32,000 bases of DNA from Candidatus Saccharimonadota bacterium (GTDB taxonomy: Bacteria; Patescibacteriota; Gracilibacteria; BD1-5; UBA2023). Both the position numbers and the translations under genes were made by a program. The notes under the pieces are model-generated. The model ran no database searches, was not told the DNA's origin, and saw nothing but the letters and a program-made list of their open reading frames with translations. Where the stretch lies: the NCBI GenBank assembly GCA_042852035.1, contig BAAFHK010000001.1, forward strand, positions 90,001 to 122,000, given 5' to 3'. Numbering within the stretch: the stretch's first letter is position 1; each line of letters starts with the position of its first letter. This document shows, piece after piece, positions 5,182-32,000 of this stretch.

Positions 5182-5217
5182 ATTCGCAAAAAATAATCCC
5201 GTTTTCACGGGATTATT
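5182..5217 (-). terminator. Intrinsic terminator after PiT gene
   Basis: AATAATCCCG (5192-5201) pairs with CGGGATTATT (5208-5217), followed on the minus strand by a T-run. The stem includes the pit stop codon. Confidence 0.7.
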
Positions 5218-6244
5218 TGTTAACAAAGAAAGAAAAAGTTAAAAATAAACCATATGCTATCGCACATGCCATAGGTATGGTAAATATCCATGCCCATACG
5301 ATTCTAAATGTCATTCCCCATTTTACGGCACGAGCATTTTTTGCAGATCCTACTCAAGAAATAGCACCAGTGATAGTATGCGTAGTAGAGACAGGGACTC
5401 CAAGTGCTGAAGCAGTAAACAGGGTGATTGCACTTGCTGTTTCTGCAGCAAATCCATCTATAGGGGTGAGTTTTACGATTTTTGATCCCATGGTTTTCAC
5501 GATTCTCCAACCTCATGTCATAGTTCCAAGAGCAATCGCAACGTAAGCCCCGATAATTACCCACATAGGAATCGGTGCTCATTTTTCCAGAAGATGTACC
5601 GAAAGAAGAAGGCTCATGATGATTCCCATTGTTTTTTGGGCATCATTTGATCCATGACCGAGTGAATATAGTGCTGATGAGGCAAGCTGAAGAAAACGAG
5701 AAGCCTTATTCATTATAGATAGGGAAAAATTCTTTCCAATCCACATCGCAAGAATGAGAAGTGTAAATCAGAGAGCAGCACCCATGAGTGGTGCGAGAAA
5801 GATGAAAATCAATGTTTTTGTCCATCCAGAAGCAATCACAACACTCCATCAACCATTGGCAAGAGCAGCACCGAGGTATCCTCCAAGAAGAGCATGAGAG
5901 GAGCTTGTTGGAAGACCAAGCCACCAAGTAATAAGGTTCCAAGAAATGGCACCAAGAAGTCATGCAAAGATTACAAGCGGAGTTACATAAGATATATCAA
6001 TCATCCCTTTTCCAATAGTTTTTGCTACCGCAGTACCAACAACGAATATTGCCACAAAGTTAAAGAATGCAGCCCAAAGCACCGCCATACGAGGCGAAAG
6101 TACTCGAGTAGCAACAACCGTAGCGATAGAGTTCGCTGCATCATGCATTCCATTCGTAAAATCAAAAGCAAAGGCAACAAGAATAATAAAGGCAACAAAC
6201 GGGTAATCTGTTACCAAATGTGTAATAAATGAAAAGAATTCCAT
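5213..6244 (-). CDS. pit: Inorganic phosphate transporter, PiT (PitA) family
   Basis: N-terminal [18 protein letters not shown] and central [15 protein letters not shown], ...[14 protein letters not shown]. Fragments join across TGA at 5960, 5849, 5767 and 5579 among others. ATG at 6242-6244, TAA at 5213-5215. The plus-strand ORF 5157-5546 is its antisense shadow. Confidence 0.9.
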
Positions 6245-6276: not shown

Positions 6277-6906
6277 TTAGCTCGCCTTTAACTTGATACC
6301 CTCGATAGTATTTGCTGCTTGTTCAAAGCTATCCATAGCAGCTTCCATATTTTCGATAGCAACCCTCCATTTCATAAGTGTAATTGGGTCTTTTTCTTTC
6401 GTGAAGATTTCTCTGATATTTTTTACATAAATATCATCACCCTGACCCTCAAGAGTATGGATTGCAACTATAACTTTTGAAGTATTAATGTGCTTATTTT
6501 TCTTCTTTCCAAAAAGCGCTTTCAGAAGTTCGCCAATACTCTCTGCTGACTCATCATAAAGCTGAGCAAATTCATCGATACAAGCTCGTTTCTCAGTAAT
6601 ATCATACATATAAAAACTTTGGATAACATTCTCAAGATCGTCGACAACATCATCAAGTCCGACAACAAGTGCGTGAAGATCTTCTCGATCATATGGGGTG
6701 ATGAATGCAGTTTGGAGTTCGTTCAGAATCCTATGTGTAGCATCATCTGCTTGTTCCTCGATAATTCGAGCCTTATGTGCGAATCGTTCAAAATCACCGA
6801 AGTTATTTCGGAACTCATGCACGAGTTTAACCATGTCCTTAATGCTTTCGGCAAGTTCGAGGAAGAGGTTGTCGAACTTATTGTTCTGAGGAAACAGGAT
6901 ACTCAT
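6277..6906 (-). CDS. DUF47 / PhoU-like phosphate transport regulator (PiT-associated)
   Basis: Intact 209-aa ORF directly upstream of the PiT gene, the classic DUF47-PiT pair. Helical, acidic sequence with ITPYDREDLHALVVGLDDVVD. Confidence 0.85.
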   Translation of the reverse strand: MSILFPQNNKFDNLFLELAESIKDMVKLVHEFRNNFGDFERFAHKARIIEEQADDATHRILNELQTAFITPYDREDLHALVVGLDDVVDDLENVIQSFYMYDITEKRACIDEFAQLYDESAESIGELLKALFGKKKNKHINTSKVIVAIHTLEGQGDDIYVKNIREIFTKEKDPITLMKWRVAIENMEAAMDSFEQAANTIEGIKLKAS

Positions 6907-7014: not shown

Positions 7015-7467
7015 TTAGATATTTGGTATAAGTACTTTCATTCATGATTGTTTCTTTGCTGCTTTAAATTCAGAAGAGAGTCAATTATTTCGAGCAGCAA
7101 GGTAGACTCATTGGAGCTCACAATATCCTAATAACTTTGTTCATTGATATCCATTCATTACCTTACTCAAAAATCTAGCGTCAACCGTTCATGTTCTTTT
7201 GATGTGTTTTTTGGTTATATCATAGTAGAGTTTTGTTGCCCTTCATCATCAGCATACAAGAACGGCTCAAAGAAATGCCGTAAACGCAATCACCGTTTCT
7301 ATCTCTCCTCAGTAATAAAGTGTGGTTCAGAGTGTTGTGTCGGCAACTAAAAGAACTCTATTTTTTATATTTCATGAAAGACATTCCACGCTAAATTTTC
7401 AAAATCTTTTTAGAGTTTCAATTCGAGATTCAGGAGCAGTTTTTTTAAAATCATCTAGCCTTCCCAT
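7015..7467 (-). CDS. Hypothetical Gly-rich protein with extreme TGA usage
   Basis: No TAA or TAG for 158 codons on the minus strand (7015-7488). ATG at 7465-7467 overlaps the pnp stop region; alternative GTG at 7387-7389. 13 in-frame TGA including the triple TGA-TGA-TGA at 7243-7251 (VC[GGG]RAT). TAA at 7015-7017, followed by a terminator. Confidence 0.4.
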
Positions 7468-9668
7468 ACTGCCGTTATAACATTTTCATTACTATTTGTT
7501 TCTTGAGGACTGTTGCCTCATTCTATGATTTTCTCAAGTCCAATCCGCCCCTTTTCCTTATCGACTGAGTAGACTTTTACTTTGACGACTTCGCCCACTT
7601 TTGCGACATCATTCACATTCGCGATTCGTTCTTTGACTCCGAATTTCGAAATGTGAATCATTCCTTCTTTTCCTTTAGTGAGTTCGACAATGGCACCAAC
7701 CGTATCAAGAATTTTTACAATTTTTCCTTCGTAGGTGTCACCTACTTCGATATCTTTGAGAATACCCTTGATGAAGGCGAGGGCAGCCTGACCTGCTTCT
7801 TGAGTTTTTGCGGTGATGGTACAGTGTCCATCATCTTCGAGATTGACCTCAACACCAAAATCTTTCTCGATACCTTGGATCGTTTCTCCACCCTTTCCGA
7901 TAACTTCACGCATTTTTTCTTCTGGTACAAATACTGCGAGGAGAAATGGTGCATATGGTGAGAGTTCACTTCGTGGACTTGAAAGGCATTTCTTCATCTC
8001 TCCCATGATGTACCCACAAGCATCTATGGATTTATCGAAGACATTCTTTATAACTTCCATCTTGAGTCCAGCAATTTTACAGTCCATCTGGAGTGCAGTA
8101 ATCCCCTTATCAGTTCGAGCTACCTTGAAGTCCATATCTCCGAGGAAGTCTTCTTGAGCTTGTATGTCAGCGAGGATTTCATATTTTCCAGTATCTTCAT
8201 CATAGATCATTCCCATTGCGACTCAGGCAACCATAGCCTTGATTGGAACTCAGGCATCCATGAGTGACATAGTTGAACCACAGACTGATGCCATCGAACT
8301 CGACCCATTACATGTTGTCGTTTCAGAAACAACACGCATCATGTATGGAAAATCTGCCTCATCTGGGAGGACTGGTTCGAGTGCTTTCTCAGCGAGACGT
8401 CCGTGACCAACCTCACGTCGTCCTACTCCACGAAGTGGCTTCACTTCACCTACAGAAAAAGGAGGGAAGTTATAGTGGTGGATGTATCGTTTCGTATCCT
8501 CCTCATACATATCGTCAATAATCTGGATGTCGCTTGGTCCACCAAGCGTTGTTACTGAGAGAACTTGTGTTACTCCACGCTCGAAGAGGGCAGAGCCATG
8601 AGTTCTTGGAAGGACTGGAGCAGTCGCACGTACAGGGCGCACCTCATCAACACGACGTCCATCGAGGCGAGTTTGGGTGCTGAGTACAGTATTCCTCATA
8701 TGTCCTGATACCACTTTTTTCACGCTATCAGCGATGTCTCCCATTTTTGGAGTATTTGTTTCTTCGTCGTATCAGAGTTTTTCAGCAACTGATTCCACGA
8801 GATTGTGAAGTGCATCATGGAATTCGAGCTTTCCGAGATTATAGAGAGCAACGATTTCTTCCTCGCTCACGAGTCATTTTACTTTCTCGATAACCTCAGT
8901 ATCAGTATCGACAACCGTAAGTTCTGTTACTGGAAGGGCATGAACTTTGCTATATTCTTTCATGAAATCATTTTGTGCTTCACAAAGCTCCTTGATGATG
9001 CTATGTGCAAATTCGAAAGCGCGCACCATGAGGTCATTGCTTACTTCCTTTCCTTGACTCTCTACCATAGTAATAGCATCGAGCGTTCCAGCAACTGTGA
9101 GATCGAGATGAGCATTCGTGAGCTCATCGAATGTTGGATCAAAAATGAATTTCCCACCCTCGTCTGAGGCAATACGAACTCAGGCAACAGGTCCTTCGAA
9201 CTCTTTCACTCCTGCGAGCATAATCGAGAGGGAAGCGCCAGTAACTCCATACCATCCAAAATCAGAGAGTCCAGAGGAGCTCATAATCGTCGAAATAATC
9301 TGAGTATCAGTACGGGTATTTTTCGGGAACATTGGACGAATTGGACGATCAATGACACGACTATTGAGAATCGCAGCTTCACTCGGTCGCCCCTCACGTT
9401 TTTGGAATCGGTTTCCACCAATCTTTCCTCCGGCATAATATTTCTCCTGGAACTCTACCGTGAGTGGGAAAAAATCTCCATCTTTTGGATTTCCAATCCC
9501 TGTGGTGGTGAGAAGGTAGTTTCCATCTTCATCTTTGATTACTACTGAACCTGTCGCAAAGAGTGCGAGTCGACCTGATTCGAATGTAATCTTTTTGCCC
9601 GCAATCGTATACGACTTCGTGACAATAGCACGTTCGAGCGCGTGCTTATCTTTGAGAGCTACTATCAT
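7455..9668 (-). CDS. pnp: Polyribonucleotide nucleotidyltransferase (PNPase)
   Basis: Fragments 7518-8216, 8250-8744, 8874-9068 and 9180-9668 are all in one frame. The junctions read LMDA[G]VPIKAMVA[G]VAMG and EGPVA[G][11 protein letters not shown] and S1 domains at the C-terminus. ATG at 9666-9668, TAG at 7455-7457. Confidence 0.95.
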
Positions 9669-9850
9669 AAAAAATAGTTTAAAATGTAAGAGCTATATTC
9701 ACTCGTCTCTCCAAACAAATACACGGAATATGTCCTTGTTCGGATGGGCGAGAGGAATAGAGCGGATGTATTATAGTGGTGGAGCGAAAAATTGCAAAAG
9801 ATAAGAACTTTAACCTATAAGATATCACGCTTTCAGAAGAGCATATTATA

Positions 9851-9879
9851 TTGACTATTTCATATTCTGTTTATAGTAA
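9851..9879 (+). promoter_or_regulatory. Sigma70-like promoter for the EEP nuclease gene (TTGACT-N17-TAGTAA)
   Basis: TTGACT at 9851-9856, TAGTAA at 9874-9879 (or TATAGT at 9872-9877). A strong SD, AAAGGAGA, ends 5 nt before the ATG at 9958. Confidence 0.35.
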
Positions 9880-9957
9880 AGTTATCTCCAATCTTATGGA
9901 GGAAAAACACATAATGAGTCAAATTCCTCATACTTCAATTTTTCGAAAGGAGACTTC

Positions 9958-10896
9958 ATGAATTGGGTCACTTGGATCCTTGTCATCTGTCTCCTCGTGA
10001 GCGGATGTAATGGTGAAGGAAGCACCGAAAAACCTTCTCCCGTAGAGTCCGCGTCAGCGACTACTCGTGATGTGCCTCTCGGAAGCTGTCCGAAGGATGC
10101 TCTGACACTCGTGTCATGGAACGTCATGAACTTCGGATCGAAGAAAACAGATGAGACCATCAAACGCATGTCTGACATCCTCCTCTCTCGAGGACTGATC
10201 TATCGAAATCAAGAAAAGATTCGAGCGAATATCATCCTCCTTCAAGAGGTGAACGCCGGATCTCGTACGGGTGGAGTCCAGACAGTTGCTCGTCTCGGGT
10301 CTGCCCTCGGGCAAGATTGGGACTCGGTGACGAGTGACAGTACCTCGGGTGATGGAGTCGAGCGGTATGCTATCCTCTGGGAGAAATCTGCTTTCGAGGT
10401 GAATCGTCGAGATGCTTATCTGGTGCAAGATCTCCGTGATGCGATTGATCGAGAACCCTTCGGTCTCAGGCTCACTCGAGGTGGACAATCCTTTTGGGTT
10501 TATAGCTACCACGCAGTACCGACGGCAAAAAAACCCATACGGGAAATAAAAGTCGTCAGAGGTTCGGCAGAGCTCGAGTCACGAAGTGCTGCTATCCTTG
10601 CTGGAGACTTCAATCTCGGTCGCACATCGGTGGTGGATATCTTCGCGGGATGGACTGATCACATCGACGGGAAAACCTCACTCAAGTCAACGATCGGAAA
10701 GGATGGAAGCTACCTCTCCTACCAATACGATCACATCCTCACAAAGGGTGGTGTACGAGTCTGTGAGAGTGGCATTATCGACTTCGTGTCACTCCATTTT
10801 TCTCCTGTTGATGTCGAAAACCTGAGACGTGCTCGTGAAATAAGCGACCACCTGCCCGTCTACATACGATTCACTCTGAAACCAGAAGGGAACTAA
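9958..10896 (+). CDS. Secreted endonuclease/exonuclease/phosphatase (EEP, DNase I-like) family lipoprotein
   Basis: Intact 312-aa ORF with no TGA. Signal peptide with lipobox LVSGC. LVSWNVMNFG, LLQEV, AGDFN and C-terminal SDHLPV are typical EEP motifs. Tandem stops TAA-TAG. Confidence 0.85.
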   Translation: MNWVTWILVICLLVSGCNGEGSTEKPSPVESASATTRDVPLGSCPKDALTLVSWNVMNFGSKKTDETIKRMSDILLSRGLIYRNQEKIRANIILLQEVNAGSRTGGVQTVARLGSALGQDWDSVTSDSTSGDGVERYAILWEKSAFEVNRRDAYLVQDLRDAIDREPFGLRLTRGGQSFWVYSYHAVPTAKKPIREIKVVRGSAELESRSAAILAGDFNLGRTSVVDIFAGWTDHIDGKTSLKSTIGKDGSYLSYQYDHILTKGGVRVCESGIIDFVSLHFSPVDVENLRRAREISDHLPVYIRFTLKPEGN

Positions 10897-11022
10897 TAGA
10901 GGCATTAACCTCGAACTTAAAATAAGACCTCTAGATTATACCGAAATAAATATTAGCCTCGAAGATGCGAGCAATCGCTGTCCTCAGGTTGTTGCATAGG
11001 AGAAGATTCTCCTGAGCATTTC

Positions 11023-11055
11023 CTCCCCCGTGAAATATCGGGGGAGAATTTTTTA
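11023..11055 (+). terminator. Intrinsic terminator
   Basis: CTCCCCCG (11023-11030) pairs with CGGGGGAG (11039-11046), followed by AATTTTTTA. Confidence 0.65.
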
Positions 11056-11100
11056 TTTAATAAAAATCCCAAGAACAAGTCTTGGAATTTTGTATTTTTC

Positions 11101-11177
11101 TGGAGCAGGTAATGGGACTCGAACCCACAACAGCCGCCATGGCAAGGCGGTACTCTAGCCAATTGAGCTATACCTGC
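11101..11177 (-). tRNA. tRNA-Gly (anticodon GCC), CCA encoded
   Basis: Cloverleaf folded by hand: acceptor GCAGGTA/TACCTGC, anticodon stem CCGCC/GGCGG with loop TTGCCAT, T-arm GTGGG-TTCGAGT-CCCAT, 3-prime TCCA. Confidence 0.9.
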
Positions 11178-12599: not shown

Positions 12600-12629
12600 A
12601 GAGAAAAATAAAGGATAAATGACGAGTCG

Positions 12630-12657
12630 AGTATAATCTCTTTCTTTCGAATTACAA
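12630..12657 (-). promoter_or_regulatory. Possible promoter TTGTAA-N16-TATACT for the Excalibur/DUF937 unit
   Basis: Minus-strand TTGTAA (plus 12652-12657) and TATACT (plus 12630-12635), about 30 nt upstream of the ATG at 12599. Confidence 0.3.
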
Positions 12658-12661
12658 TATG

Positions 12662-13303
12662 CTAGGCTCACTCCTTTTTACGAAGCCATTTCACGATAGG
12701 GTAGAGAAATGGAGTGATGGCGACTTCTGTAGCAAGCTTCCAGATATAGTTCGAGAGAAACATCGAAATGAGGATATCGGTCGAAAATATGGCTCCGAAT
12801 GTATCACCGAAGATTGCGAAAATCCCAGAAAAGGCGACGATGAGGAATATCGCGGTATCGAGGGCATGTCCGATAACGGATGACCCGAGAGTGCGCATCC
12901 AGAGATGTTTTCATTCCGTGAGTTTCCGTATTTTCATGAGGATGGTCGCATTCGCGAGTTCTCAGGCGAGGTAGGCGATGAGGCTTGCGAGGATGATGCG
13001 AGGAGTAGATCCGAGGATGGTGTCATATGATGCCTGATTAGTCCATTCGGCATTCGCAGGGATGCGCCCGACTGCCCAGGTGATGAGCGAGAAAAGAAGG
13101 AGTGAAGCAAATCCCGTCCAGATGATTTGTCGAGCATTTTTAATCCCATAGATCTCCGTGAGTATATCTCCGAGGATGTAGGCAAGTGGGAAGATGATTG
13201 TCCCCCCGTCGAAGGTAAATGGTCCAATATCGATGAGCTTCACGCTCGTGATATTGGCGATGATGAGAGTGGCGACGAAGAGTCCAGAAATGATAGGAAG
13301 CAT
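12662..13303 (-). CDS. yhhQ: Queuosine precursor transporter, YhhQ/DUF165 family
   Basis: FTFDGGTIIFPLAYILGDILTEIYG and SSVIGHALDTAIF motifs. Fragments join across TGA at 12962, 12911 and 12668. ATG at 13301-13303, TAG at 12662-12664. Confidence 0.85.
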
Positions 13304-13340
13304 GGAGAATTTTAATTGTTATTTGGAATGGTTTATATTC

Positions 13341-13603: not shown

Positions 13604-14446
13604 CTAGGTTCATAAGTGGTTATTCGTGATTTTGAAGTACCAGAGCTTGAGCCAAGCCATGAAACTTCCACTTCCGCGATAATTCGCAATCAGTGTATTC
13701 TGAAAACTTTCGATGTCAAGGGTGAGACGTTCTTTATTGTAGAATACTCACATAGAGTATCATATTCTGAATTTTTTACAAAAACTTTCCAAAGTTTTTA
13801 TCCCATCATAGGTTCGGTAGGTAAACTCGTGTTTATCGATGTTATGATAGGTTTTACTCGCGACAAATAAAAATATATTATACTCATCACGAGCGCGAAA
13901 AGCATTTTCGATCGAAGAATAAAACCCATCGATAAATACAGGAACAGGAACATTCCTCATTTTGTACATCTTTCTGAGAAAGGTGTAATAAAATGAAATT
14001 CGAGGTTCTTGGAAGATAAGTGTAACCATAACCTTTCGTTCATAGTGCATGCACTGGTCGAGATTTTGTTTCACCTTTTCATAGCTCCGAAATGTTCCAT
14101 CGAAGATGAAATTCAAGTGATTATGGAAGCAGTATTTGAGAATCTTATCAGCAACTCGTACCGATGCTTTTTGGTATTCACTCGCATTCTCTCCGTTGTA
14201 ACCACGGAACATTTTCCTATATGCATCTATATCTATGACGATAAAATTCGACTTGAGATCAGAGAATATGGTCTCGAGGAATTCACTTTTTCCAGCTCAT
14301 GGAGCTCACGCAAGAAAAATAGCAGAGATATCGAGAGGATCTTTGATCGCATATTTTTCCTTCTTTCCAAAACTCTCGATGATATATTCCGCGAGTTTCT
14401 CTATTCCGGCTTCGGTGTTGTCGAATTTTGTTCGGAGATCGAGCAT
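13604..14446 (-). CDS. Zeta-toxin family P-loop kinase domain protein
   Basis: Walker A FLA[G]AP[G]AGKSEF with both glycines encoded by TGA (14306-14308, 14297-14299). VIDIDAYRKMF (zeta D-x-D-x-x-R) and FIFDGTFRS. Joins track ORF 13760-14212 across TGA. ATG at 14444-14446, TAG at 13604-13606. Confidence 0.8.
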
Positions 14447-14461
14447 CTTGAATATTACTAA

Positions 14462-15181
14462 CTAAGGAGTTTGTATTTTTTGAGCCTGTTTAGCGTCCCC
14501 TAGCTTTTTTAGTCATTGAAGTCTAGTATTTTTATCGTGTCTTTTTATGTACCATTCTTCCAAGAGAAATTCTATTAACCACTTTAATTGATCAACTTCT
14601 CATTCATCTATATCTATAATGAGGTTGATATCTTTCTCCATATGAGCTCAGATATTTCAAGTTTTTCTTAGAGTCTCAATAGCGTCAATGATATCAGTAT
14701 CGTGTATAACATTTTTTAATTCATCAATTTCATCAACCAATCGTGATTTTACTATTTTATGAAAATCACGAATCATTCATTGCAAGCATCTTCGCAAAAG
14801 TGTGGCAGAGGCCTTAGGTGAGAGTGATGCTATTTTGCATGCTTCATTATAATCTTCAATTATTGGTTCTGGAATAATTCATGAAGGGAACTGTTTTGCC
14901 AGAGAGTCAGGCACAAGTTGCCAGCTATTTATAACTTCAAATTTTGAACTAATCCCATCTTCTTCACTTTCATAATCAATATAAGATCCAAGTGTTGCAG
15001 TTACTTGATGCATTCTGCACTCGGGATTCGTACAAACGATTATGTCAGTATTAAAGTAGAGACGTTTTTTTAAGTAAACAGTTTCAATTTCAAAGTCATG
15101 ATATGAATTGGCATGGCTCGAATTAGAATCATTTACTACCATTCTTGTTCAGCAGTATGGACAATGGTTTGTATGACTCAT
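14462..15181 (-). CDS. Zn-ribbon plus DUF4145 domain protein (HEPN-like R..GN..AH motif)
   Basis: N-terminal CPYC[G]...CTNPEC. C-terminal IIEDYNEACKIASLSPKASATLLRRCLQ...AIETLRKTGNIGAHME...LIEFLLEEWY matches the DUF4145 pattern. ATG at 15179-15181, TAG at 14462-14464, 15 nt before the zeta-like gene. Confidence 0.75.
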
Positions 15182-20025: not shown

Positions 20026-20141
20026 TTTGGAGTTGCTTGCATTACACCAAAGAGCCTATCCGATTGGAGAGGCGAGCTTCTTTGTTGTGATAGAGTGGGA
20101 GAACATGAATTTGAATATATGAATGAAGTATTGAATGTCAA

Positions 20142-21761
20142 TTAATTCACATTTCTTTTCGGGAAGATATCTGTTGCGGCTGTTTCGACAGCTCTTCTTA
20201 CTTTTTCGATTCTGGCTTCAGGAGAAAGGTCTTTGAGGTTGAGTCTGAGATAGTGTACTCCTTCTTCTGGCTCTGCCTTTCTCATGGCATCGATTGTGGC
20301 TTGGAACTCTCCGTCTTCGGGAAGGATGATGCCACTATCGCTAAGTTCTCTTCTGAATTGTGCATGATGAGAAGTTTCGAGGATTACGATAGGAGTTCAG
20401 GCTCTTTGATGGTCTGCGAGCGTTCCATCAATGGTTGGAGTGGCAGCAGTAGCTGTATGGGTTTCGATAGGGTGACCATAGAGATCAAGAAATTCTTGGA
20501 TGGTACCGAGTCGTTGCTCATTTGTACTTTTTGATGAACTGAAAATACTCTGAATATTTCTTCGTGTTTCAGCATCAACTTCAAAATATCATTTATTCTT
20601 CAGATCGACATTATACCATTGGTTTATCTTTGCTTGATCTCATCCGCAAGCAAGAAATATTGCTCGTTCAAGATTACTTGATTTTGCAATATCTTGAGAT
20701 GGTGCATTCGAAATAAATACTTTTTGTTCTTCACGAGGAGCGTATCTTCCTGTTTTTATAAATTCATCGAGAACGTCATTCTCATTGGTGGCAACATGGA
20801 TTTTTATTGGGAGTCCCATATATTTCGCATACATTCCTGCAAGGGCATCTCAGAAATTCCCAGAAGGTACAGAAAAAACCACCTCTTCTCATGACGTGAT
20901 AACTCACTGTTTTATGAGTTCGGTATAAGCTCGGAAATAATAGACAGTTTGTGCGAGTATGCGAGCGATATTAATAGAGTTAAAGGAAGTAATCCCATAC
21001 TCTTGCTTAAATGAAGAAAAACCTTCTCCATTGAGAGCCTTGATAACATCTTGAGCTGGATCAAAGGGGACATCTACAAGGAGGGTGAGAGCATTAGGAT
21101 TATTCATAAGCCCATGAGTCGCTTGGAGAGCCTGTACTTCAGAGGGGCCTTTTCCAGTTCGAGCATCTCTTTCTGGGAGCATGAAAATTGATTTGATATT
21201 TTCTGTGCCTTTTACCCCGAAATGTGCTGCATTGATAGTGTCGCCACTCGACGCTCCGAGTACATGATGGACCTTTGCTTTTGTTCATCTTCGGGTAAGT
21301 TTCTCGATAATAGCATCCAAAAAACGAGGAAGGAATTCGAGAGCGACATTTTTAAATGCCATAGTAGGGCCGTATCAAAGATGAAGCGAGTAGAGTCATT
21401 CTCAGATATGTTTTACAGGAGTTGTATCTTTACTGTACCAATCGTTTCCACTTGGTTTGCTCCATTGTTCTCCATAAGCCTCATCGATAATTGCAGCAAG
21501 CTCATCTCTTGAGATTCCCCAATCAAATGAAGAAAGTATAACCTTTGCCAAAGCCCGATAATCGAGATTTGCCATTCAGGCGAGATATTCAGTGTTGAAT
21601 TTTGGAAAGTCACCCTCACTCATCGTGTAGAGTCAGCCACCAGACTGAGGTTGGCTCTTATATACTGCTTGGGGAAGATCCTCTTTCTCAACAAAACCTC
21701 GTGAATCTACGAGCTGGAAACGCAATACTCGAGCATGTGCATGTTTTTTTAGGGTATACAT
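20142..21761 (-). CDS. thrC: Threonine synthase (long form)
   Basis: Whole frame checked codon by codon: no TAA or TAG, at least 12 TGA. PLP site L[G]YGPTMAFKNVALEF, SSGDT, FNSINIARILAQTVYYFRAY. ATG at 21759-21761, TAA at 20142-20144. Confidence 0.9.
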
Positions 21762-23487: not shown

Positions 23488-24384
23488 TTATGTATTGTGT
23501 ATGGGGCAAACTTCTGGTTCAGGATCGGTATCAAGATGGAGAGTGATGGTTGCTCCAAGAAAACGGGCTCATAAGGCTGACTCAAGAGATTCAGACACAT
23601 TATGAGCATCCTGGAGAGATATTTTTTTGTCACGGAAAACGATATGTGCTTCGATAAATATATCATCTCATGACCGTCTTGTTTTAAGGAAATGGTAGGA
23701 TTCAAGTCATTTCTCACTCTTTAATAAACTATCAATTTCCTTTATTTCCTCTTCGCTTAATGATCGATCAAGAAGCATATTGATTCAATTCCAAAGGATT
23801 GGCAGCGCGTTTTTAAGTATCCAAAGAGCTATGGCAATAGCAAAAATCGAATCTGTCCACCATAAACCGAAGAATTTCGTAAGTATAAGAGCGAGAAGTA
23901 TTCCTATATTCATGACAAGATCTGATGAATAATGGAGTGCATCTGATTGAATAAGAAGTGACTTTTGTATTTTTGAGACTCGCAAAAAATTCCACATAAT
24001 GAGAATGGTTCAGAGTATTGCAAGAATCATGGCAGAAATTTCAATACCCGAGATTTCAGGATGTTTTTGGGCTGTAAAATTTACTATGCCGTTATATCAA
24101 AGGAATAGTCCAGAACCCAGCACGATACTTCATTCGAAAATTGCAGCAAATCCTTGAACTTTCCCAAGGCCATAAGAATAGTTTCGAGTTTTATCCTTTT
24201 CTGAAAGCCATAGTGCTCAGGCATTTACAGAGGAAACGAACATATCCATAAATGAATCAAGAGCCGATCAAAGAATAGCAAGAGATCCTGATAAGAAACC
24301 TATAACTGCCTTTAGAATTGCTAAAACAAGAGAGATAATCAGTGCAAATCTGATTGCGAATTTAGGGGTGCTAGGAAGTTTCAT
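23488..24384 (-). CDS. Cation diffusion facilitator (CDF) family divalent-metal efflux transporter
   Basis: 298 aa checked codon by codon. ...LGSALDSFMDM..., HYSSDLVMNIG, and a cytoplasmic C-terminal domain ...FIEAHIVF...ITLHLD. ATG at 24382-24384, TAA at 23488-23490. Confidence 0.85.
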
Positions 24385-24475
24385 AAAAGACAGATATAAA
24401 ATGAGCATATTCATTTTTTATCTTTCATCAATCAAAACTCTCAAGTTAAACTCATTATATGGGTTTATATTTTTT

Positions 24476-25252
24476 TTAATGTTGAGTATATTCACTGGTT
24501 TCGGTCGATTCTTCATGATGATGGTGCTCTGCAAATAATGACATAAAGAGTACTCCTATAAGAAATGCGAGGATGGAGAGGTATTTGTTTTTTGTCGTTG
24601 AGTGAATGACAGGTAAGAGGTCAGTCGTTGCTATGTAAAGTAATGAACCACCAGCAAATGCTGCAGCAAGACCAACGATAACTTCACTTACATTTGACAG
24701 CATAAAATCTGAAATAAAGTACCCCAATGGTGCTGCGAATGCAAATAAGGTAACCAAGACTATTTGAAATCGTTTCTGTAACTTTGATTCACGCATAAGT
24801 GCCGCAAGGGAGAGCGAGACAGGGATTTGATGGACTCATACTCAAAAAAGTATCGCATATCCTGCCGCTTCTGAGAGTCACATTCCGGCACGAATGCCAA
24901 CTCCATCAAGGAGTGTATGACTAAATATCGCAAGAAAAGATACGACTGCCACATGATCATAGTGTTCGTGTGGGTCTTCGTGTGCATGATCACCATGTGA
25001 GTGATCATGTCGATGAGGAGTAAGAAGCTCCTCAATAAGATAGATACTAATAAAACCACTGAGAAATGCATATACAGCAAGCTCTGTTTGTTCGAGTGAT
25101 TCTGGGAAAATATGTACCAATGAAACAGCAAGCATCGATCATGCACCAACGGCAATAAGAAGGTTTAAAAGCGCTGTATTAATTTTTTGAAAAAAATAGA
25201 GCAGAAGTCATGTAGCTGAAATTGCCGTGAGAATAGAGAGAGGAAGTAACAT
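24476..25252 (-). CDS. ZIP family zinc transporter (ZupT-like) with His-rich loop and tail
   Basis: Fragments 24476-24796 and 24878-25135 plus the N-terminus are in one frame. His-rich loop HRHDHSHGDHAHEDPHEHYDH, HTLLDGVGI, VHQIPVS, C-terminal EHHHHEE. Confidence 0.85.
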
Positions 25253-25276
25253 AAATATGAATTGATTTATAATGAA

Positions 25277-26227
25277 TTAAGATGCAAAGAGTACTGATCT
25301 ACCCGCCGTGCTACACTCATCGAGGAGTTTTCTGATGAGAGCTTCATCCATATTTTTCCCGATAAAAACAAGCTGAGAATTATTCGGTACACTTCGATGC
25401 CACGGTTCCATAGTGAATCTCGCTCACGCTTTTTGTATGAGCCACCATTCTCCGGGTTTTTCCGTGAACTCAACAAATCACTTTACTCGATAGGCATCGG
25501 TTGTGAGATCTTCGAAGAATTGGTCGAGTTCGCGGGCTTTCATTTTTCCGTTCGGGGTATAGGAGAAAACTTGGAGGTCCTCATGACCATGTTTGCTTTT
25601 TTCTTTTCCTTGCTCATACATCTCCGGATAGAGGGAAAATCTTTCGGTTGAGAGGAGGAGGTTAAGGTCTACTTTTCCGTATTCGGTATAAATAATAGGA
25701 GCAAATGCATTCACCCTTTGTATGAGTCATTCAAGATATTTTTTCTTAGATGATTCAATAAGGTCACACTTGTTCATGATTATAAAATCTGCAAATTCAA
25801 GCTGATCCAGTGCGATATCTGGATTTGAAATGAGTAGGTTTTCAAAATTGAGCGCATCAACCAGGCATATTATGGAATCAAGTTTTACCCTTCAGCCCAT
25901 GTCATTCATAAGAAAAGACTGCGCTATCGGAAGGGGTTCGCTTGCTCAGGATGCCTCGATTACAATCGCATCAATCTTTTTGCCACTATCAAGGAGTCTT
26001 TCAATCGCATCCATCCAATCTTTGCGAACAACGCAACACATACAACCGTTCGAGACTTCGATGAGCTCTTCGCTTGATTTTTCGATGAGGTCAGAATCAA
26101 TAGAAGTTTCTCAAAACTCATTTTCGACCACCGCAATTTTGATACCATGATCCCCAGTGAGTATGTGGTTGAGGAGAGTAGTTTTTCCGCTCCCAAGAAA
26201 ACCAGTGACGATAGTTATAGGTATCAT
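25277..26227 (-). CDS. CobW/G3E-family metallochaperone GTPase (ZigA/YeiR-like)
   Basis: P-loop [21 protein letters not shown] metal motif, NKCDL, CobW C-terminal domain. Frame verified with no TAA or TAG. ATG at 26225-26227, TAA at 25277-25279. Confidence 0.9.
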
Positions 26228-26230
26228 GAG

Positions 26231-26578
26231 TTAGTTTTTACAGTGGTTACAATTTTTTATGAGTTCTATGGTTTCCGATTTTATGGAATCAGGAGCAAGT
26301 GGAGTATGTTTTTCTTCGATGCTGTGGCAATTTATGCAGCATTTGAGCGTCACAGCATCCTCCTTTTTTTTGCACTGACAGAGAGTAAAATATTTTTCCC
26401 CGTCATACTCGACCCGATGAATGATTCACTCACTCATGAACTTATCGAGGATTCGATAGAGTGTTGTTTGATTCATTTCATGTGTATGGATAAAGCATTC
26501 TTTCAGTTTCCGAAGAGAACTTGTTTTTACATTTTCTAAAAATGAAAGAATATGTCTTCTGTGAATTGTGGAAAGCAT
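26231..26578 (-). CDS. Fur-family metalloregulator, Zur-like by genomic context
   Basis: HRRHILSFLEN...NQTTLYRILDKFMSE[G]IIHRVEYDGEKYF and CxxC pairs (CINC, NCNHC). Its stop is 3 nt before the cobW-like ATG. The ATG at 26576-26578 is favoured because the alternative ATG at 26620 lies inside the predicted promoter. Confidence 0.75.
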
Positions 26579-26585
26579 AAAATGG

Positions 26586-26622
26586 ATTCTATTTAAAATG
26601 CATTTTTTTTGCAAATGCATTT
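26586..26622 (-). promoter_or_regulatory. Promoter TTGCAA-N17-TAGAAT overlapped by two copies of the palindrome AAATGCATTT (candidate Fur/Zur operator)
   Basis: Minus-strand -35 equals plus 26609-26614, -10 equals plus 26586-26591. Palindromes at 26596-26605 and 26613-22 (that is, 26613-26622). The -10 element ends 7 nt before the ATG at 26578. Confidence 0.45.
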
Positions 26623-26640
26623 TTTTATATCTTGAAGGTA

Positions 26641-26663
26641 CAAAAAAACCTGCCGAAGCAGGG
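26641..26663 (-). terminator. Intrinsic terminator after the first Fur paralog
   Basis: CCTGC-CGAA-GCAGG hairpin followed on the minus strand by T7. Confidence 0.7.
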
Positions 26664-26671
26664 AATTGTGT

Positions 26672-27046
26672 TTAGTGAATCATACAGGCATTACAGTTTT
26701 TCATTCGAGCAAAGGTGTCGCTTGAAATGTATGGATTTGCAAGTTTTGAGTGTACGTCATAGATAGCTCAACAATTCTCACAAAAACTTATTGTTATGGC
26801 ATCATTTGGTCCAGCGTGTTCACACTGACATGGGAATATTACTCGTTCTCAAGCAACAGTCATCTCGTGTATAAGTCCTTGATCACGAAATGCGTCAACA
26901 ATTCGATAGAGTGTGGCGAGATTCATTCCTGGATGTCATTTCTTTCCGACAAGCTGCTTTTTTAAATCAGAAAAGGTAATTCGATTTGCTTGACTCAGTG
27001 CTTCGACAAATCTTTTTCGTGGTTCGGTAATTCGTGTTTCTGCCAT
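26672..27046 (-). CDS. Fur-family transcriptional regulator (second paralog)
   Basis: Only visible with TGA=Gly. RITEPRKRFVEAL...NLATLYRIVDAFRDQGLIHEM...FPCQCEH...FCENC[G]...NCNAC. ATG at 27044-27046, TAA at 26672-26674. Confidence 0.75.
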
Positions 27047-27080
27047 GTTCTTTTGGGTGTAAAATTTTAACGAGATTGGA

Positions 27081-27108
27081 AATATAGCGAGTTTTTTTAT
27101 ATTTGCAA
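27081..27108 (-). promoter_or_regulatory. Promoter TTGCAA-N16-TATATT for the upstream Fur paralog
   Basis: -35 equals plus 27103-27108 (within ATTTGCAAAT), -10 equals plus 27081-27086. Confidence 0.4.
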
Positions 27109-27198
27109 ATTTTTGCGCAGAAAATTATTTTTGTACTTTTTGCACAAGGAGATTCAATGAGATTTATCAACCTTAAAGGAAAATATTCTTCTCAATTT

Positions 27199-28359: not shown

Positions 28360-29484
28360 CTAAACAAAGAGAGTTTTCAGAACAAAGAAAATAGTTCCAG
28401 CAAGGACGGTTGAAACAGGGAGTGTGAGAACCCAAGCCATAAGAATTGCTTTAATGGTATCTCCTTGAAGTCCACCTTTTCCGTGTTCATGAGCCATAGT
28501 TCCAGCTACTCCAGATGAGAGAATGTGTGTTGTTGATACAGGGAGATGAAGGTGCGATGCTGATTCTATGGTAATGGCTGTCATGAGAGAAGCGACCGTT
28601 GCTTGAGCATAGGTAAGTTTATCTTTTCCGATTTTTTCCCCGATGGTGATAACGATACGCTTCCATCCAACCATGGTTCCGAGTCCGAGAGAAATAGAAA
28701 TCATGATAATTACCCAATATGGAATTTGCTCTGTTCCACTAATAATACCAGCGATATTATAATCTGCTGGGAAGAATGCTATAAGGATAAGCATAGCAAG
28801 TCCGACTCATTTTTGACCGTCATTTGATCCATGTGCAAAACTCACGAATGCACTTGAAGTTATGAGAGTGCTTTTGATCCAAGTCTTTGGATATTTATTC
28901 CAGAAACGCCCCGGATGTTTAAAGAAGTCCTTATTTGTTACATAAAGATGAAGGATATGCATAGCACCAAAAGCAAGAACAAATCCCACAAAAGGAGAAA
29001 CAAGGAGAGATTCAAGAGTTTCAATAACTTTATGCCAAGGAAGAAGTACTGAGTTATCTGAAAATTTCATCACAAGCCCTACTCAAAGGATTGATCCAAT
29101 AAGCGTATGTGAGCTCGATGCTGGGATACCAAGATACCAAGTTCCAAAATTCCAGATAATTGCTGCAATAAGTAGAGAAAGTACGGCACAAATCCCAAAG
29201 GACATGCTAGAGGCGGCTATTTTATCGAGAGGAAGAAGCTTCATAATACCAATAGCAACTCAAGTTCCTCAAACAACTACACCGAGAAAGTTAAAGAATG
29301 CTGCGAGAAGTACGGCTTTTTTTGCTGAGAGTGAATTTGAATAGATTACTGGAGCAACAGCATTGGCTGTATCATGAAAGCCATTAATAAATTCAAAGGC
29401 ACATACGAGCGCAAGACAAAGGCTTGCAAAAATAAGAGGAGCGTCCATAGGTAAAAAAGGATAAATACCGAAATATTCTCTCAT
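28360..29484 (-). CDS. pit: Inorganic phosphate transporter, PiT family (second paralog, no DUF47 partner)
   Basis: [27 protein letters not shown][G][18 protein letters not shown]. Fragments 28360-28794, 28807-29073 and 29269-29484 are in one frame. ATG at 29482-29484 (alternative ATG at 29448), TAG at 28360-28362. Confidence 0.9.
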
Positions 29485-31464: not shown

Positions 31465-32000
31465 ATGCGCATTATCTCCTGGAACGTAAACGGTATCCGT
31501 GCGACCTATAATAAATGAGAACTTGGAAAATTCATCGAGGCTCATGATCCAGATGTTATCTTTATGCAGGAAATTAAGGCAACTCTAGATAAGCTTCCGG
31601 AGGAGTTAAGAGCTCCAGAGGGGTATGAGGCATTTTATAATTCAGCAGAAAAGCCCGGATATGCAGGGACGGGTATCTGGGTTAAAAATGAATATAGAAA
31701 GTATATTCATTCGATTCAGACAGGATTTGAAGGTGACCCAACCGCCAATGAATGACGAGTTTCACACCTTATCTTAGAAAAGGATGGAGAAATTTTTGAT
31801 ATATTTGGCATCTATTTTCCGAACGGTGGGAAAAGTGAGGAGGCTTGGAAGGGGAAAATCGTATTCTATCATGAATTTGCGAAACGCATGGATGAGCTTC
31901 GTTCTTTAGGGCACTATGTTCTTTGGGGGTGAGATCTTAATTGTGCGCATCATGAAATTGACCTTGCACGACCAAAGGAAAATGATGGAAAAATCTGATT
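31465..32000 (+). CDS. xth: Exodeoxyribonuclease III (partial, continues past the window end)
   Basis: MRIISWNVNGIRA, DVIFMQEIK, GYAGTGIW, W[G][G]DLNCAHHEIDL. TGA=Gly at several sites. Confidence 0.9.

What the first reader, a model, noticed from the sequence alone, without database searches (positions are those of the whole stretch)
9851..11055. TGA-free secreted EEP nuclease lipoprotein with its own promoter, strong Shine-Dalgarno and terminator: likely import from a standard-code donor
The 312-codon gene has 27 Gly and none is TGA. At a 20-30% TGA share of Gly in neighbouring genes, the chance of zero is about 0.002 or less. It is the only plus-strand gene in a roughly 20-kb minus-strand block. 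It is the only gene among about 15 starts I inspected with a canonical SD (AAAGGAGA, 5 nt before the ATG). It carries a TTGACT-type promoter, tandem TAA-TAG stops and a private terminator. A code-11 to code-25 transfer is permissive when the gene does not end in TGA, which fits here. Functionally, a lipobox-anchored DNase I-like nuclease would suit nucleotide scavenging by a reduced episymbiont.
Basis: partly seen in the sequence, partly recalled or inferred. Interest (0 to 1): 0.65.

Follow-up and report, generated by a model that had tools for sequence, protein, structure and literature searches.

The report
TGA-free DNase lipoprotein gene in Gracilibacteria
This gene encodes a surface-anchored DNase I-like nuclease in a bacterium that reads TGA as glycine; its lack of TGA and its ribosome-binding site are real but are shared by the whole gene family in related recoded genomes, so they do not mark a recent import from a standard-code donor.

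Summary
Gene 9958-10896(+) has 312 codons and 27 Gly codons, none TGA. The other 31 window genes use TGA for 24% of Gly. It is the only plus-strand gene in a 20-kb minus-strand block. It is the only one of 32 genes with a canonical Shine-Dalgarno site. It ends TAA-TAG and has a strong terminator. The TTGACT promoter is weak.

The product is a lipoprotein precursor with a complete DNase I-like catalytic domain. The organism is a Gracilibacterium, and TGA=Gly is shown.

"Recent import from a standard-code donor" is not supported. All clearly classifiable close homologues (55-63% identity) lie on recoded contigs. One sits beside the same DUF937 and tRNA-Gly neighbours. Once TGA use is modelled against GC3, zero of 27 has P=0.06-0.14.

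The standard-code look is a family trait. All ten homologues on recoded or probably recoded contigs have no TGA in the domain (0 of 235 Gly) and keep an AAGGAG-like site. Seven have TGA exactly where the protein should end.

My best reading is a standard-code-style gene lineage long resident in Gracilibacteria, sitting here in a rearrangement-prone tRNA-Gly slot with its stop repaired to TAA-TAG.

The parts
9852..9878 (+). Possible sigma-70-type promoter: TTGACT, a 15-nt spacer, then TATAGT. The spacing is suboptimal.
   Evidence: Read from the sequence. The consensus scan did not call it; it found only minus-strand sites facing PNPase in this intergenic region.
9946..9953 (+). Shine-Dalgarno site AAAGGAGA, 4 nt upstream of the ATG.
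   Evidence: Duplex energy is -9.0 kcal/mol, against -5.8 or weaker for the other 31 starts. An AAGGAG/AAAGGA-like motif is kept in all EEP homologues, while the surrounding upstream sequence differs by eye.
9958..10008 (+). Signal peptide with lipobox (residues 1-17, L-V-S-G-C17).
   Evidence: Translation. G16 and C17 are invariant in the seven closest homologues. The model predicts an N-terminal helix.
10009..10101 (+). Ser/Ala/Thr/Pro-rich linker between the lipid anchor and the catalytic domain (residues 18-48).
   Evidence: pLDDT is below 50 for residues 28-38. The motif GCNGExSxEKxSPVxSASAT is shared with the L010 copy.
10102..10875 (+). DNase I-like EEP catalytic domain (residues 49-306), free of TGA.
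   Evidence: Pfam PF03372 matches residues 52-298 at 1.9e-9, above the cutoff. The AlphaFold model has pLDDT 88.6. The best PDB matches are human and bovine DNase I and DNase1L3. N55, E97, E135, H185, D217, N219, D258, D297 and H298 are invariant in 30 homologues.
10894..10899 (+). Tandem stop codons TAA TAG.
   Evidence: This is rare in native genes, 3 of 90.
10954..11058 (+). Structured 3' UTR. Two hairpins are followed by the intrinsic terminator (stem 11023-11046, then a T-run).
   Evidence: Terminator scan. The terminator folds at -17.7 kcal/mol with z = -3.5, and the 149-nt region has z = -5.2.
11101..11177 (-). tRNA-Gly(GCC). It is the landmark of the variable slot that holds the nuclease gene.
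   Evidence: ARAGORN and Rfam. The same tRNA lies next to the EEP gene in L009/L010 and L002, and next to unrelated genes in L012 and L013.
9669..9957 (.). Divergent intergenic region between PNPase (minus strand, ATG at 9668) and the nuclease gene.
   Evidence: Gene model and Pfam. Minus-strand promoter-like sites lie at 9873-9845 and 9798-9770.

Best explanation
What the gene encodes. The product is a lipoprotein precursor. I infer that Lgt/LspA-type processing at Cys17 leaves a DNase I-like, Mg2+-dependent endonuclease tethered by a flexible linker to the outer face of the cell membrane. There it would cut extracellular or host DNA. This would feed nucleotide and phosphate uptake in a Gracilibacterium with limited biosynthesis. 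PhoU-like and PHO4 phosphate-transporter genes lie 3 kb away, and directly upstream of the homologue in L010.

How it is expressed. It forms its own transcription unit, divergent from PNPase. It has a leader that uses a Shine-Dalgarno site and a strong intrinsic terminator. Native genes in this lineage show no SD.

How it evolved. The lack of TGA, the SD and the elevated GC are traits of the whole lipoprotein-nuclease lineage in recoded Gracilibacteria. I read this as a gene lineage of standard-code style. It descends from, or was acquired from, standard-code CPR (Candidate Phyla Radiation) relatives in which it ended in a TGA stop. It was typically part of a Rhomboid-EEP operon.

The window copy has been in this lineage since before the split from the L001/L002 organism. 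It sits in a rearrangement-prone slot next to tRNA-Gly(GCC). Its stop has been repaired to TAA-TAG. Any proximate donor was another recoded Gracilibacterium, not a standard-code organism.

Shown: fold, catalytic residues, lipobox, SD uniqueness, TGA statistics, synteny and the code state of the homologues' contigs. Inferred: export and lipidation, substrate, physiological role, direction and timing of any transfer.
For: Function:
- Pfam EEP hit, a confident model and DNase I as the best structural match.
- All nine catalytic positions are invariant.
- The lipobox Cys is conserved.

Organism and code:
- PNPase hits are named Gracilibacteria.
- TGA aligns with Gly.

Family trait:
- The ten homologue contigs other than L019 are recoded by ORF coverage or by Pfam domains running through TGAs. 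L017 is too short to classify, and the short L018 is only probably recoded.
- All ten have 0 TGA among 235 GGN codons in the domain.
- This includes L016, whose copy has GC3 of 0.33. The native regression would predict about 29% TGA there.
- All keep an AAGGAG-like SD. About 94 native starts, including r-protein L21, have none.
- Seven of the ten have TGA at the natural end. The code-11 relative L019 ends in a real TGA stop.
- Rhomboid-EEP synteny occurs in L003, L016, L017 and L007, with ATGA overlaps in L003 and L017.

Residence:
- L001/L002 carry the gene between DUF937 and tRNA-Gly. Flanking proteins are 70-82% identical and the EEP is 63% identical.
- The clade of window, L001, L017, L003/4/6 and L016 has 99% bootstrap support.
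- Codon usage matches the host's GC-rich class.

Variable slot.
Against: - Within the window alone the TGA absence is not significant once GC3 is taken into account (P = 0.06-0.14). A purely native, codon-biased gene therefore fits the window data.
- If the family has resided in recoded genomes long enough to diverge to 45-63% identity, neutral drift should have introduced TGA Gly codons. It should also have erased the terminal TGA. Their persistence is unexplained and may mean selection rather than ancestry.
- No standard-code donor or sister closer than 47% was found.
- The L010 copy shares the window's linker motif yet falls outside the clade in the NJ tree. Orthology versus replacement at the tRNA-Gly slot is therefore unresolved.
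- All homologues came from a protein database that was partly called with code 11. However, no high-identity fragments that would betray TGA-containing copies were seen.
- Lgt/LspA genes, the 16S anti-SD sequence and expression could not be checked.
Confidence: 0.55

Rival explanations
1. Native gene at the extreme of the genome's own codon-bias gradient. TGA is a disfavoured Gly codon in GC-rich, highly expressed genes. This abundantly made surface nuclease avoids it through selection, or partly by chance. The SD serves strong initiation. No transfer is involved.
For: TGA share falls with GC3 in 98 native genes. It is 13% for genes with GC3 of at least 0.45, and PNPase shows 3-9%. The predicted share for this gene is 10%, giving P(0/27) = 0.06-0.14. 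The codon choices match the host's GC-rich genes: CTC for Leu, CGA/CGT for Arg, CAA for Gln and GGA for Gly. Neighbours are shared with L001/L002.
Against: It does not explain the AT-rich L016 copy (GC3 0.33), which has no TGA. It does not explain TGA at the natural end in seven homologues. It does not explain why no other native gene has an SD, r-protein L21 and PNPase included. Only 1 of 71 native genes with at least 15 Gly lacks TGA. The native ExoIII-like EEP gene at 31465 uses TGA for 4 of 20 Gly.
Confidence: 0.25
2. One reading: a recent import into this genome directly from a standard-code (code 11) donor. The import was tolerated because the gene does not end in TGA.
For: The gene has the highest GC in the window (0.51 against 0.40). 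It has the unique SD, no TGA, and is next to a tRNA. It is absent from the same locus in the two closest relatives by PNPase.
Against: The best standard-code relatives are at most 47% identical. The 55-63% relatives lie on recoded contigs wherever the code can be judged. The L001/L002 copy sits in the same neighbourhood at only 63% amino-acid and 67% nucleotide identity, so residence is old. Codon usage is host-like. No integrase or mobility gene is nearby. There are no close phage homologues.
Confidence: 0.05
3. A gene kept code-neutral by selection. The family is maintained free of TGA, SD-led and ending in TGA plus a later TAA/TAG (or in TAA-TAG). This could be because it is repeatedly exchanged between code-25 episymbionts and standard-code bacteria. 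Alternatively, UGA at these gene ends may still act as a termination or stalling signal.
For: The terminal TGA is kept in seven divergent homologues, and none has an ordinary sense codon there. The tails evolve like non-coding DNA. Whole blocks of such genes lie beside TGA-rich genes on the proven recoded contigs L003 and L007. Code-11-compatible phages of Gracilibacteria with no in-frame TGA and several different stops at gene ends are described in the literature (PMC10746230).
Against: No transfer event was caught and no mobile-element context was found. RF2 is reported absent from BD1-5 genomes (PMC6851277), which argues against UGA termination. The window copy itself ends in TAA-TAG, so it says nothing about UGA function.
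Confidence: 0.15

Closest known systems
Eukaryotic DNase I / DNase1L3 (EEP superfamily, PDB 4awn, 1atn, 7kiu)
   Same: Same fold: it is the best Foldseek match (E = 1e-15, TM 0.73 on the target). The catalytic positions correspond (from my own knowledge of DNase I numbering) to N7, E39, E78, H134, D168, N170, D212, D251 and H252. The motifs are SWN, LQEV, ERY, HAVP, GDFN, YDHI and SDHLP.
   Different: Only about 20% identity. It is a bacterial lipoprotein with an N-terminal lipid anchor and linker. It carries a clade-specific 12-residue insertion (SRGLIYRNQEKIR). Actin binding, disulfides and Ca2+ sites were not examined.
MnuA family membrane nucleases of Mycoplasma (NCBIfam NF045851)
   Same: Works alike. 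Both are lipoprotein-anchored EEP nucleases on the surface of a small-genome, nucleotide-scavenging bacterium that also reads UGA as sense. The N-terminal third matches partially (residues 52-150, E = 7e-10).
   Different: The score is 39 bits against a family cutoff of 185, so it is not a member. It comes from a different phylum (CPR) and a different code (UGA=Gly, not Trp).
EEP-family nucleases of standard-code CPR and Bacteroidota (e.g. Paceibacteria, Moranbacteria, Falkowbacteria; B. thetaiotaomicron 3mpr)
   Same: Same family at 33-47% identity, with the same catalytic set and a similar length. The code-11 relative L019 shares an upstream DUF2491-like neighbour with L003 and L007.
   Different: Most have a plain membrane anchor instead of a lipobox and lack the insertion. 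They live in standard-code genomes, where TGA is their real stop.
Code-11-compatible phages predicted to infect Gracilibacteria/Absconditabacteria (Liu et al. 2023, mBio, PMC10746230)
   Same: Same sequence logic: no in-frame TGA, and more than one kind of stop codon close together at gene ends. The genes therefore read correctly under both codes.
   Different: Here it is a chromosomal cellular gene in a conserved neighbourhood, not a phage genome. Phage homologues are few and distant.

Membership tests
Endonuclease/exonuclease/phosphatase (EEP) superfamily, Pfam PF03372 | Profile match above the curated gathering score. | tested here: met
   38 bits against a cutoff of 24.5. Residues 52-298 cover profile positions 1-225 of 225.
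Endonuclease/exonuclease/phosphatase (EEP) superfamily, Pfam PF03372 | Complete set of catalytic and metal-binding residues (Asn, Glu, Glu, His, Asp-x-Asn, Asp, Asp-His). | tested here: met
   N55, E97, E135, H185, D217, N219, D258, D297 and H298 are invariant in a 30-sequence alignment.
DNase I-like nucleases | Closest structural neighbours are DNase I-type enzymes rather than ExoIII, sphingomyelinase or phosphatase branches. | tested here: met
   Top Foldseek hits are 4awn, 1atn, 7kiu and 2a42, followed by TDP2. The model has pLDDT 88.6.
DNase I-like nucleases | Mg2+/Ca2+-dependent endonucleolytic cleavage of double-stranded DNA. | not testable with these tools
   Needs an enzyme assay of the mature domain.
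MnuA family membrane nuclease (NCBIfam NF045851) | Whole-protein score above the curated cutoff. | tested here: not met
   39.4 bits against a cutoff of 185, and only profile positions 2-99 of 317 match.
Bacterial lipoproteins | Lipobox [LVI][ASTVI][GAS]C at the end of a hydrophobic signal segment. | tested here: met
   L-V-S-G-C17 follows WILVICLL. G16 and C17 are invariant in the close clade. The n-region of this copy has no Lys or Arg, unlike several homologues.
Bacterial lipoproteins | Lgt and LspA present in the genome, and lipid modification of the Cys. | not testable with these tools
   Only 32 kb of a 750-kb contig is available.
Recently acquired foreign gene (genomic islet) | Closest homologues lie outside the recipient lineage. 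| tested here: not met
   The closest homologues (55-63%) are on recoded Gracilibacteria-type contigs wherever the code can be judged. Standard-code relatives are at most 47% identical.
Recently acquired foreign gene (genomic islet) | Atypical composition and translation signals. | tested here: inconclusive
   GC is the highest in the window and the SD is unique. However, synonymous codon choice matches the host's GC-rich genes.
Recently acquired foreign gene (genomic islet) | Patchy presence at a tRNA-adjacent site, with mobility genes nearby. | tested here: inconclusive
   The gene is next to tRNA-Gly, absent in L012 and L013, and present in L001/L002 and L010. No integrase, flanking repeats or phage genes were found.
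[quoted passage not shown] | No in-frame TGA, and more than one stop codon close together at the gene end. | tested here: met
   0 of 27 Gly are TGA, and the stops are TAA-TAG. Homologues show TGA followed by TAA/TAG.

The most novel reading that the evidence does not exclude
Recoded Gracilibacteria may carry a discrete class of chromosomal genes, this nuclease family among them. These genes are kept readable under both genetic codes. They are SD-led, contain no internal TGA, and end either in TAA/TAG or in a conserved TGA followed by a later TAA/TAG. They may be maintained by selection, for example through continuing exchange with standard-code partners, or because UGA at these ends still acts as a termination or stalling signal. 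On contigs such as L003 and L007 these genes form operon-like blocks, with ATGA overlaps, next to TGA-rich genes that lack an SD.
Probability: 0.2. Interest if true: 0.75.

Novelty: new member of a known kind. Interest (0 to 1): 0.45.

Why it matters
The gene itself is an expected tool for a nucleotide-dependent episymbiont. It is a surface DNase of a known fold, functionally like the mycoplasma membrane nucleases.

The wider value lies in the family-wide pattern. A gene lineage in UGA=Gly bacteria never uses UGA in its body and keeps a Shine-Dalgarno site that native genes lack. In most members it still carries UGA where the protein should end.

If this reflects ancestry, such genes are markers for dating and tracing gene flow across a genetic-code boundary. 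If it reflects selection, it would show that a code change does not fully wall off a genome, or that UGA keeps a second role. Both readings can be tested with existing complete genomes and metaproteomes.

Tried and rejected
- Sequence search of the PDB gave no hit; the fold search was needed.
- The genome-contig scan failed with the 30-sequence alignment. With 10 sequences it found only the contig already held as L007, so the window genome and named relatives were not recovered.
- Both metagenome-contig scans found nothing.
- The viral-contig scan gave two distant homologues at 32-33% on 125-175-kb contigs.
- The phage collection gave one hit at 29% identity. A phage vehicle was therefore rejected.
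- Cluster look-up gave almost no organism names.
- Rfam found only the two tRNAs.
- The repeat search around the gene gave no convincing flanking direct or inverted repeats that would explain insertion or inversion.
- The G1/RNY frame statistic wrongly suggested a second plus-strand gene at 12602-13315. Homology showed it is the antisense of a Vut_1 gene.
- I first took L007 for a standard-code contig because most of its genes lack TGA. That was rejected when a Pyr_redox_2 domain was found to run unbroken through three TGAs.
- A Biopython bootstrap timed out, so I used my own NJ bootstrap.
- I considered that the L010 copy proves an independent acquisition at the same tRNA. I downgraded this because its linker is the most window-like of all.
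- The 5' UTR shows no significant structure.
Full report
**Genetic code and organism**

The window (40% GC) reads TGA as sense. ORFs of at least 120 aa cover 45% of it under code 11 and 96% when TGA is read through. TGA codons align with GGN glycine codons in orthologues 87 times out of 115, and never with Trp. Named PNPase hits are Candidatus Gracilibacteria; the best unnamed hits reach 88% identity. This is therefore a code-25 Gracilibacterium.

**Check of the observation**

- The gene runs 9958-10896(+), with 312 codons and no upstream in-frame start.
- It has 27 Gly codons and none is TGA. The other 31 genes use TGA for 168 of 691 Gly (24%).
- It is the only plus-strand gene between about 2291 and 22270. 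That block holds UPF0020, PHO4, PhoU_div, PNPase, tRNA-Gly, DUF937, Vut_1, tRNA-Arg, Zeta toxin, DUF4145, LysRS, homoserine dehydrogenase, an M23 peptidase and others.
- AAAGGAGA lies 4 nt before the ATG and pairs with a generic anti-SD at -9.0 kcal/mol. The other 31 starts score -5.8 or weaker.
- TAA-TAG follows the last codon. Only 3 of 90 native genes have an adjacent second stop.
- The hairpin at 11023-11046 plus T-run is the strongest terminator in a 7-kb scan. It folds at -17.7 kcal/mol, z = -3.5.
- The TTGACT hexamer exists, but its best -10 box is 15 nt away, and the scan did not call it.

**Is the lack of TGA more than chance?**

The pooled rate gives P = 5e-4. However, TGA share ranges from 0 to 76% between genes and falls with GC3. 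I fitted 98 native genes from the window and four related loci. The fit predicts about 10% TGA for this gene. That gives P(0 of 27) = 0.06 (binomial) or 0.14 (beta-binomial). Even so, only 1 of 71 native genes with at least 15 Gly has no TGA. The window alone is therefore suggestive, not decisive.

**What the gene encodes**

- Pfam gives an EEP match above threshold.
- NCBIfam gives only a partial, sub-threshold match to mycoplasma MnuA membrane nucleases.
- An AlphaFold model built on 30 homologues is confident (pLDDT 88.6).
- Its best PDB neighbours are human and bovine DNase I and DNase1L3, followed by TDP2.
- N55, E97, E135, H185, D217, N219, D258, D297 and H298 are invariant. From my own knowledge of DNase I, they sit in the DNase I motifs.
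- The N-terminus is a signal segment ending in L-V-S-G-C17. The Cys is invariant in the close clade. A disordered Ser/Ala/Thr/Pro-rich linker follows.
- I infer a lipid-anchored surface DNase that serves nucleotide and phosphate scavenging. PhoU_div and PHO4 lie 3 kb away, and lie directly upstream of the homologue in L010.

**Relatives and their genetic code**

The family is small: 256 representatives among 1.84 billion proteins. The closest homologues are 55-63% identical. I fetched their contigs.

- L001/L002, L003, L004/L005, L006 and L016 are recoded by ORF coverage.
- For L003, ADP-ribosylglycohydrolase and NAPRTase domains run unbroken through 9 and 6 TGAs.
- L017 is too short to classify.
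- The more distant homologue contigs L007, L009/L010 and L018 are also recoded. The evidence is a Pyr_redox_2 domain running through TGAs in L007, JGI calls with W at TGA in L010, and ORF coverage. The evidence for the short L018 is the weakest.
- L019, a 175-kb JGI contig, uses the standard code.
- No standard-code homologue exceeds 47% identity.

**Residence in this lineage**

- L001/L002 carry the 63% homologue between DUF937 and tRNA-Gly(GCC). Flanking proteins are 70-82% identical to the window's.
- In the window the gene lies on the other side of the same tRNA, in the opposite orientation.
- L009/L010 carry an EEP gene directly upstream of the same tRNA, between PHO4 and NUDIX-PNPase.
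- The two closest relatives by PNPase (88%), L012 and L013, have no EEP near PNPase. They fill the tRNA-Gly surroundings with unrelated TGA-rich genes.
- The slot is therefore variable, but the gene is not a newcomer.
- Its synonymous usage matches the host's GC-rich genes. Examples are CTC at 68% against 78% of Leu, CGA/CGT for Arg, CAA for Gln and GGA for Gly.

**The family-wide pattern**

- In all ten distinct homologues on recoded or probably recoded contigs, the domain has no TGA: 0 among 235 GGN codons.
- This includes L016, whose copy is AT-rich (GC3 0.33). The native regression would predict about 29% TGA there.
- All keep an AAGGAG/AAAGGA-like motif 5-11 nt before the ATG, although the rest of the upstream sequence differs by eye.
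- About 94 native starts in window-type loci have 3-9% G in the last 20 nt and no SD. These include PNPase and r-protein L21.
- Seven of the ten have TGA exactly where the protein should end. It is followed by 6-140 unconserved codons before a TAA or TAG.
- The other three (window, L001, L017) stop at TAA or TAG. None has an ordinary sense codon at that place.
- The standard-code relative L019 ends in a true TGA stop.
- Fragments that would betray TGA-containing close homologues were not found.

**Phylogeny and context**

- In a bootstrapped NJ tree, the window, L001, L017, L003/4/6 and L016 form a clade with 99% support. L007 and P0011 join it at 79%.
- Rhomboid-EEP is the neighbourhood in L003, L016, L017 and L007. 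In L003 and L017 the genes overlap by ATGA.
- A DUF2491-like neighbour is shared with the standard-code L019.
- The Rhomboid-EEP arrangement therefore looks ancestral, and the window/L001 context looks derived.
- The L010 copy falls outside the clade (0.3% support for sisterhood). Yet it has the most window-like linker, 15 of 28 residues. Orthology versus replacement there is unresolved.

**Interpretation**

A recent, direct import from a standard-code donor is not supported.

The best fit is a standard-code-style gene lineage long resident in Gracilibacteria. Here it sits in a rearrangement-prone tRNA-Gly slot with its stop repaired to TAA-TAG.

The main rival is translational selection on a native gene. 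That rival fits the window statistics. It does not explain the AT-rich TGA-free copy, the terminal TGAs or the unique SD.

The persistence of the terminal TGA across divergent homologues is unexplained. It leaves room for selection for code neutrality. Code-11-compatible phages of these bacteria show the same sequence logic (PMC10746230). RF2 is reported absent from BD1-5 genomes (PMC6851277), which argues against UGA termination.

**Limits**

- Only 32 kb of the genome was available.
- Look-ups of further contigs were exhausted.
- The trees are distance-based.
- Export, lipidation, activity and expression are inferred.

Noticed in passing
L003:6426-11020 and L003:13803-18590; L007:5096-10532: On contigs proven to be recoded, blocks of genes have no internal TGA, carry SD motifs, show ATGA start/stop overlaps and have TGA at the natural end. 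They lie beside genes that have no SD and use TGA for roughly 20-70% of Gly. There are two distinct gene classes on one contig.
   Followed up: partly
window 7015-7467 (-) and 14462-15181 (-): A 150-aa ORF between PNPase and PhoU_div encodes 13 of its 17 Gly with TGA (76%). The DUF4145 gene uses TGA for 7 of 10. These are the opposite extreme from the nuclease gene.
   Followed up: no
window 31465-31998 (+), cut by the window end: This is a second EEP-fold gene. It looks ExoIII-like by its sequence, and Pfam PF03372 matches at 3.7e-17. It has no SD and uses TGA for 4 of 20 Gly. It serves as an internal control showing that the fold itself does not exclude TGA.
   Followed up: yes
window, about 30 gene starts; L010, L012, L013, L001: Native genes have G-depleted (3-9% G), T/C-rich sequence in the 20 nt before the ATG and no SD. 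Many have a TATAAT/TATACT-like box ending 3-10 nt before the ATG, which may mean short or absent leaders.
   Followed up: partly
window 7449-9677 (+), 9871-10935 (-), 12602-13315 (+), 20094-21752 (+): Very long open frames run antisense to real genes when TGA is read as sense. They probably arise because TTA and CTA are rare. They are not genes, and one of them misled a frame statistic.
   Followed up: yes
window 10954-11018 (+): Two further stable hairpins lie in the 3' UTR just upstream of the terminator. The 149-nt region folds with z = -5.2. There is no Rfam match.
   Followed up: partly
window 9896-9961 (+): An out-of-frame upstream ORF ends, in the code-11 sense, at the TGA of the ATGA start. 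Its last codons (R-K-E) carry the SD, as at the Rhomboid C-terminus in L016, with a related ...E-R-E-S-S end in L017. It may be a relic of a Rhomboid-EEP operon junction.
   Followed up: partly
window 13604-14446 (-); L010:6512-7354; L013:2666-3508: The Zeta-toxin gene keeps a TGA-encoded Gly two codons before its stop in three genomes. This is a conserved, clearly sense TGA near a gene end.
   Followed up: no
window 23488-27124 (-): This is a metal-homeostasis cluster. It holds a cation-efflux (CDF) transporter, a ZIP transporter, a CobW-type GTPase and two FUR-family regulators.
   Followed up: no
window 5213-6244 (-) and 28360-29484 (-): There appear to be two phosphate transporters in 32 kb. 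The first is a confirmed Pfam PHO4 match and is paired with a PhoU_div gene (6277-6906). The second looks like PHO4 from its sequence by eye only and was not searched.
   Followed up: no
L013:6834-9771; L012:6610-7682: The surroundings of tRNA-Gly(GCC) upstream of PNPase differ in every related genome. They hold a sigma-70 factor plus two unknown genes in L013, a 315-aa unknown gene and an inverted tRNA in L012, NUDIX in L010 and the nuclease gene in the window.
   Followed up: partly
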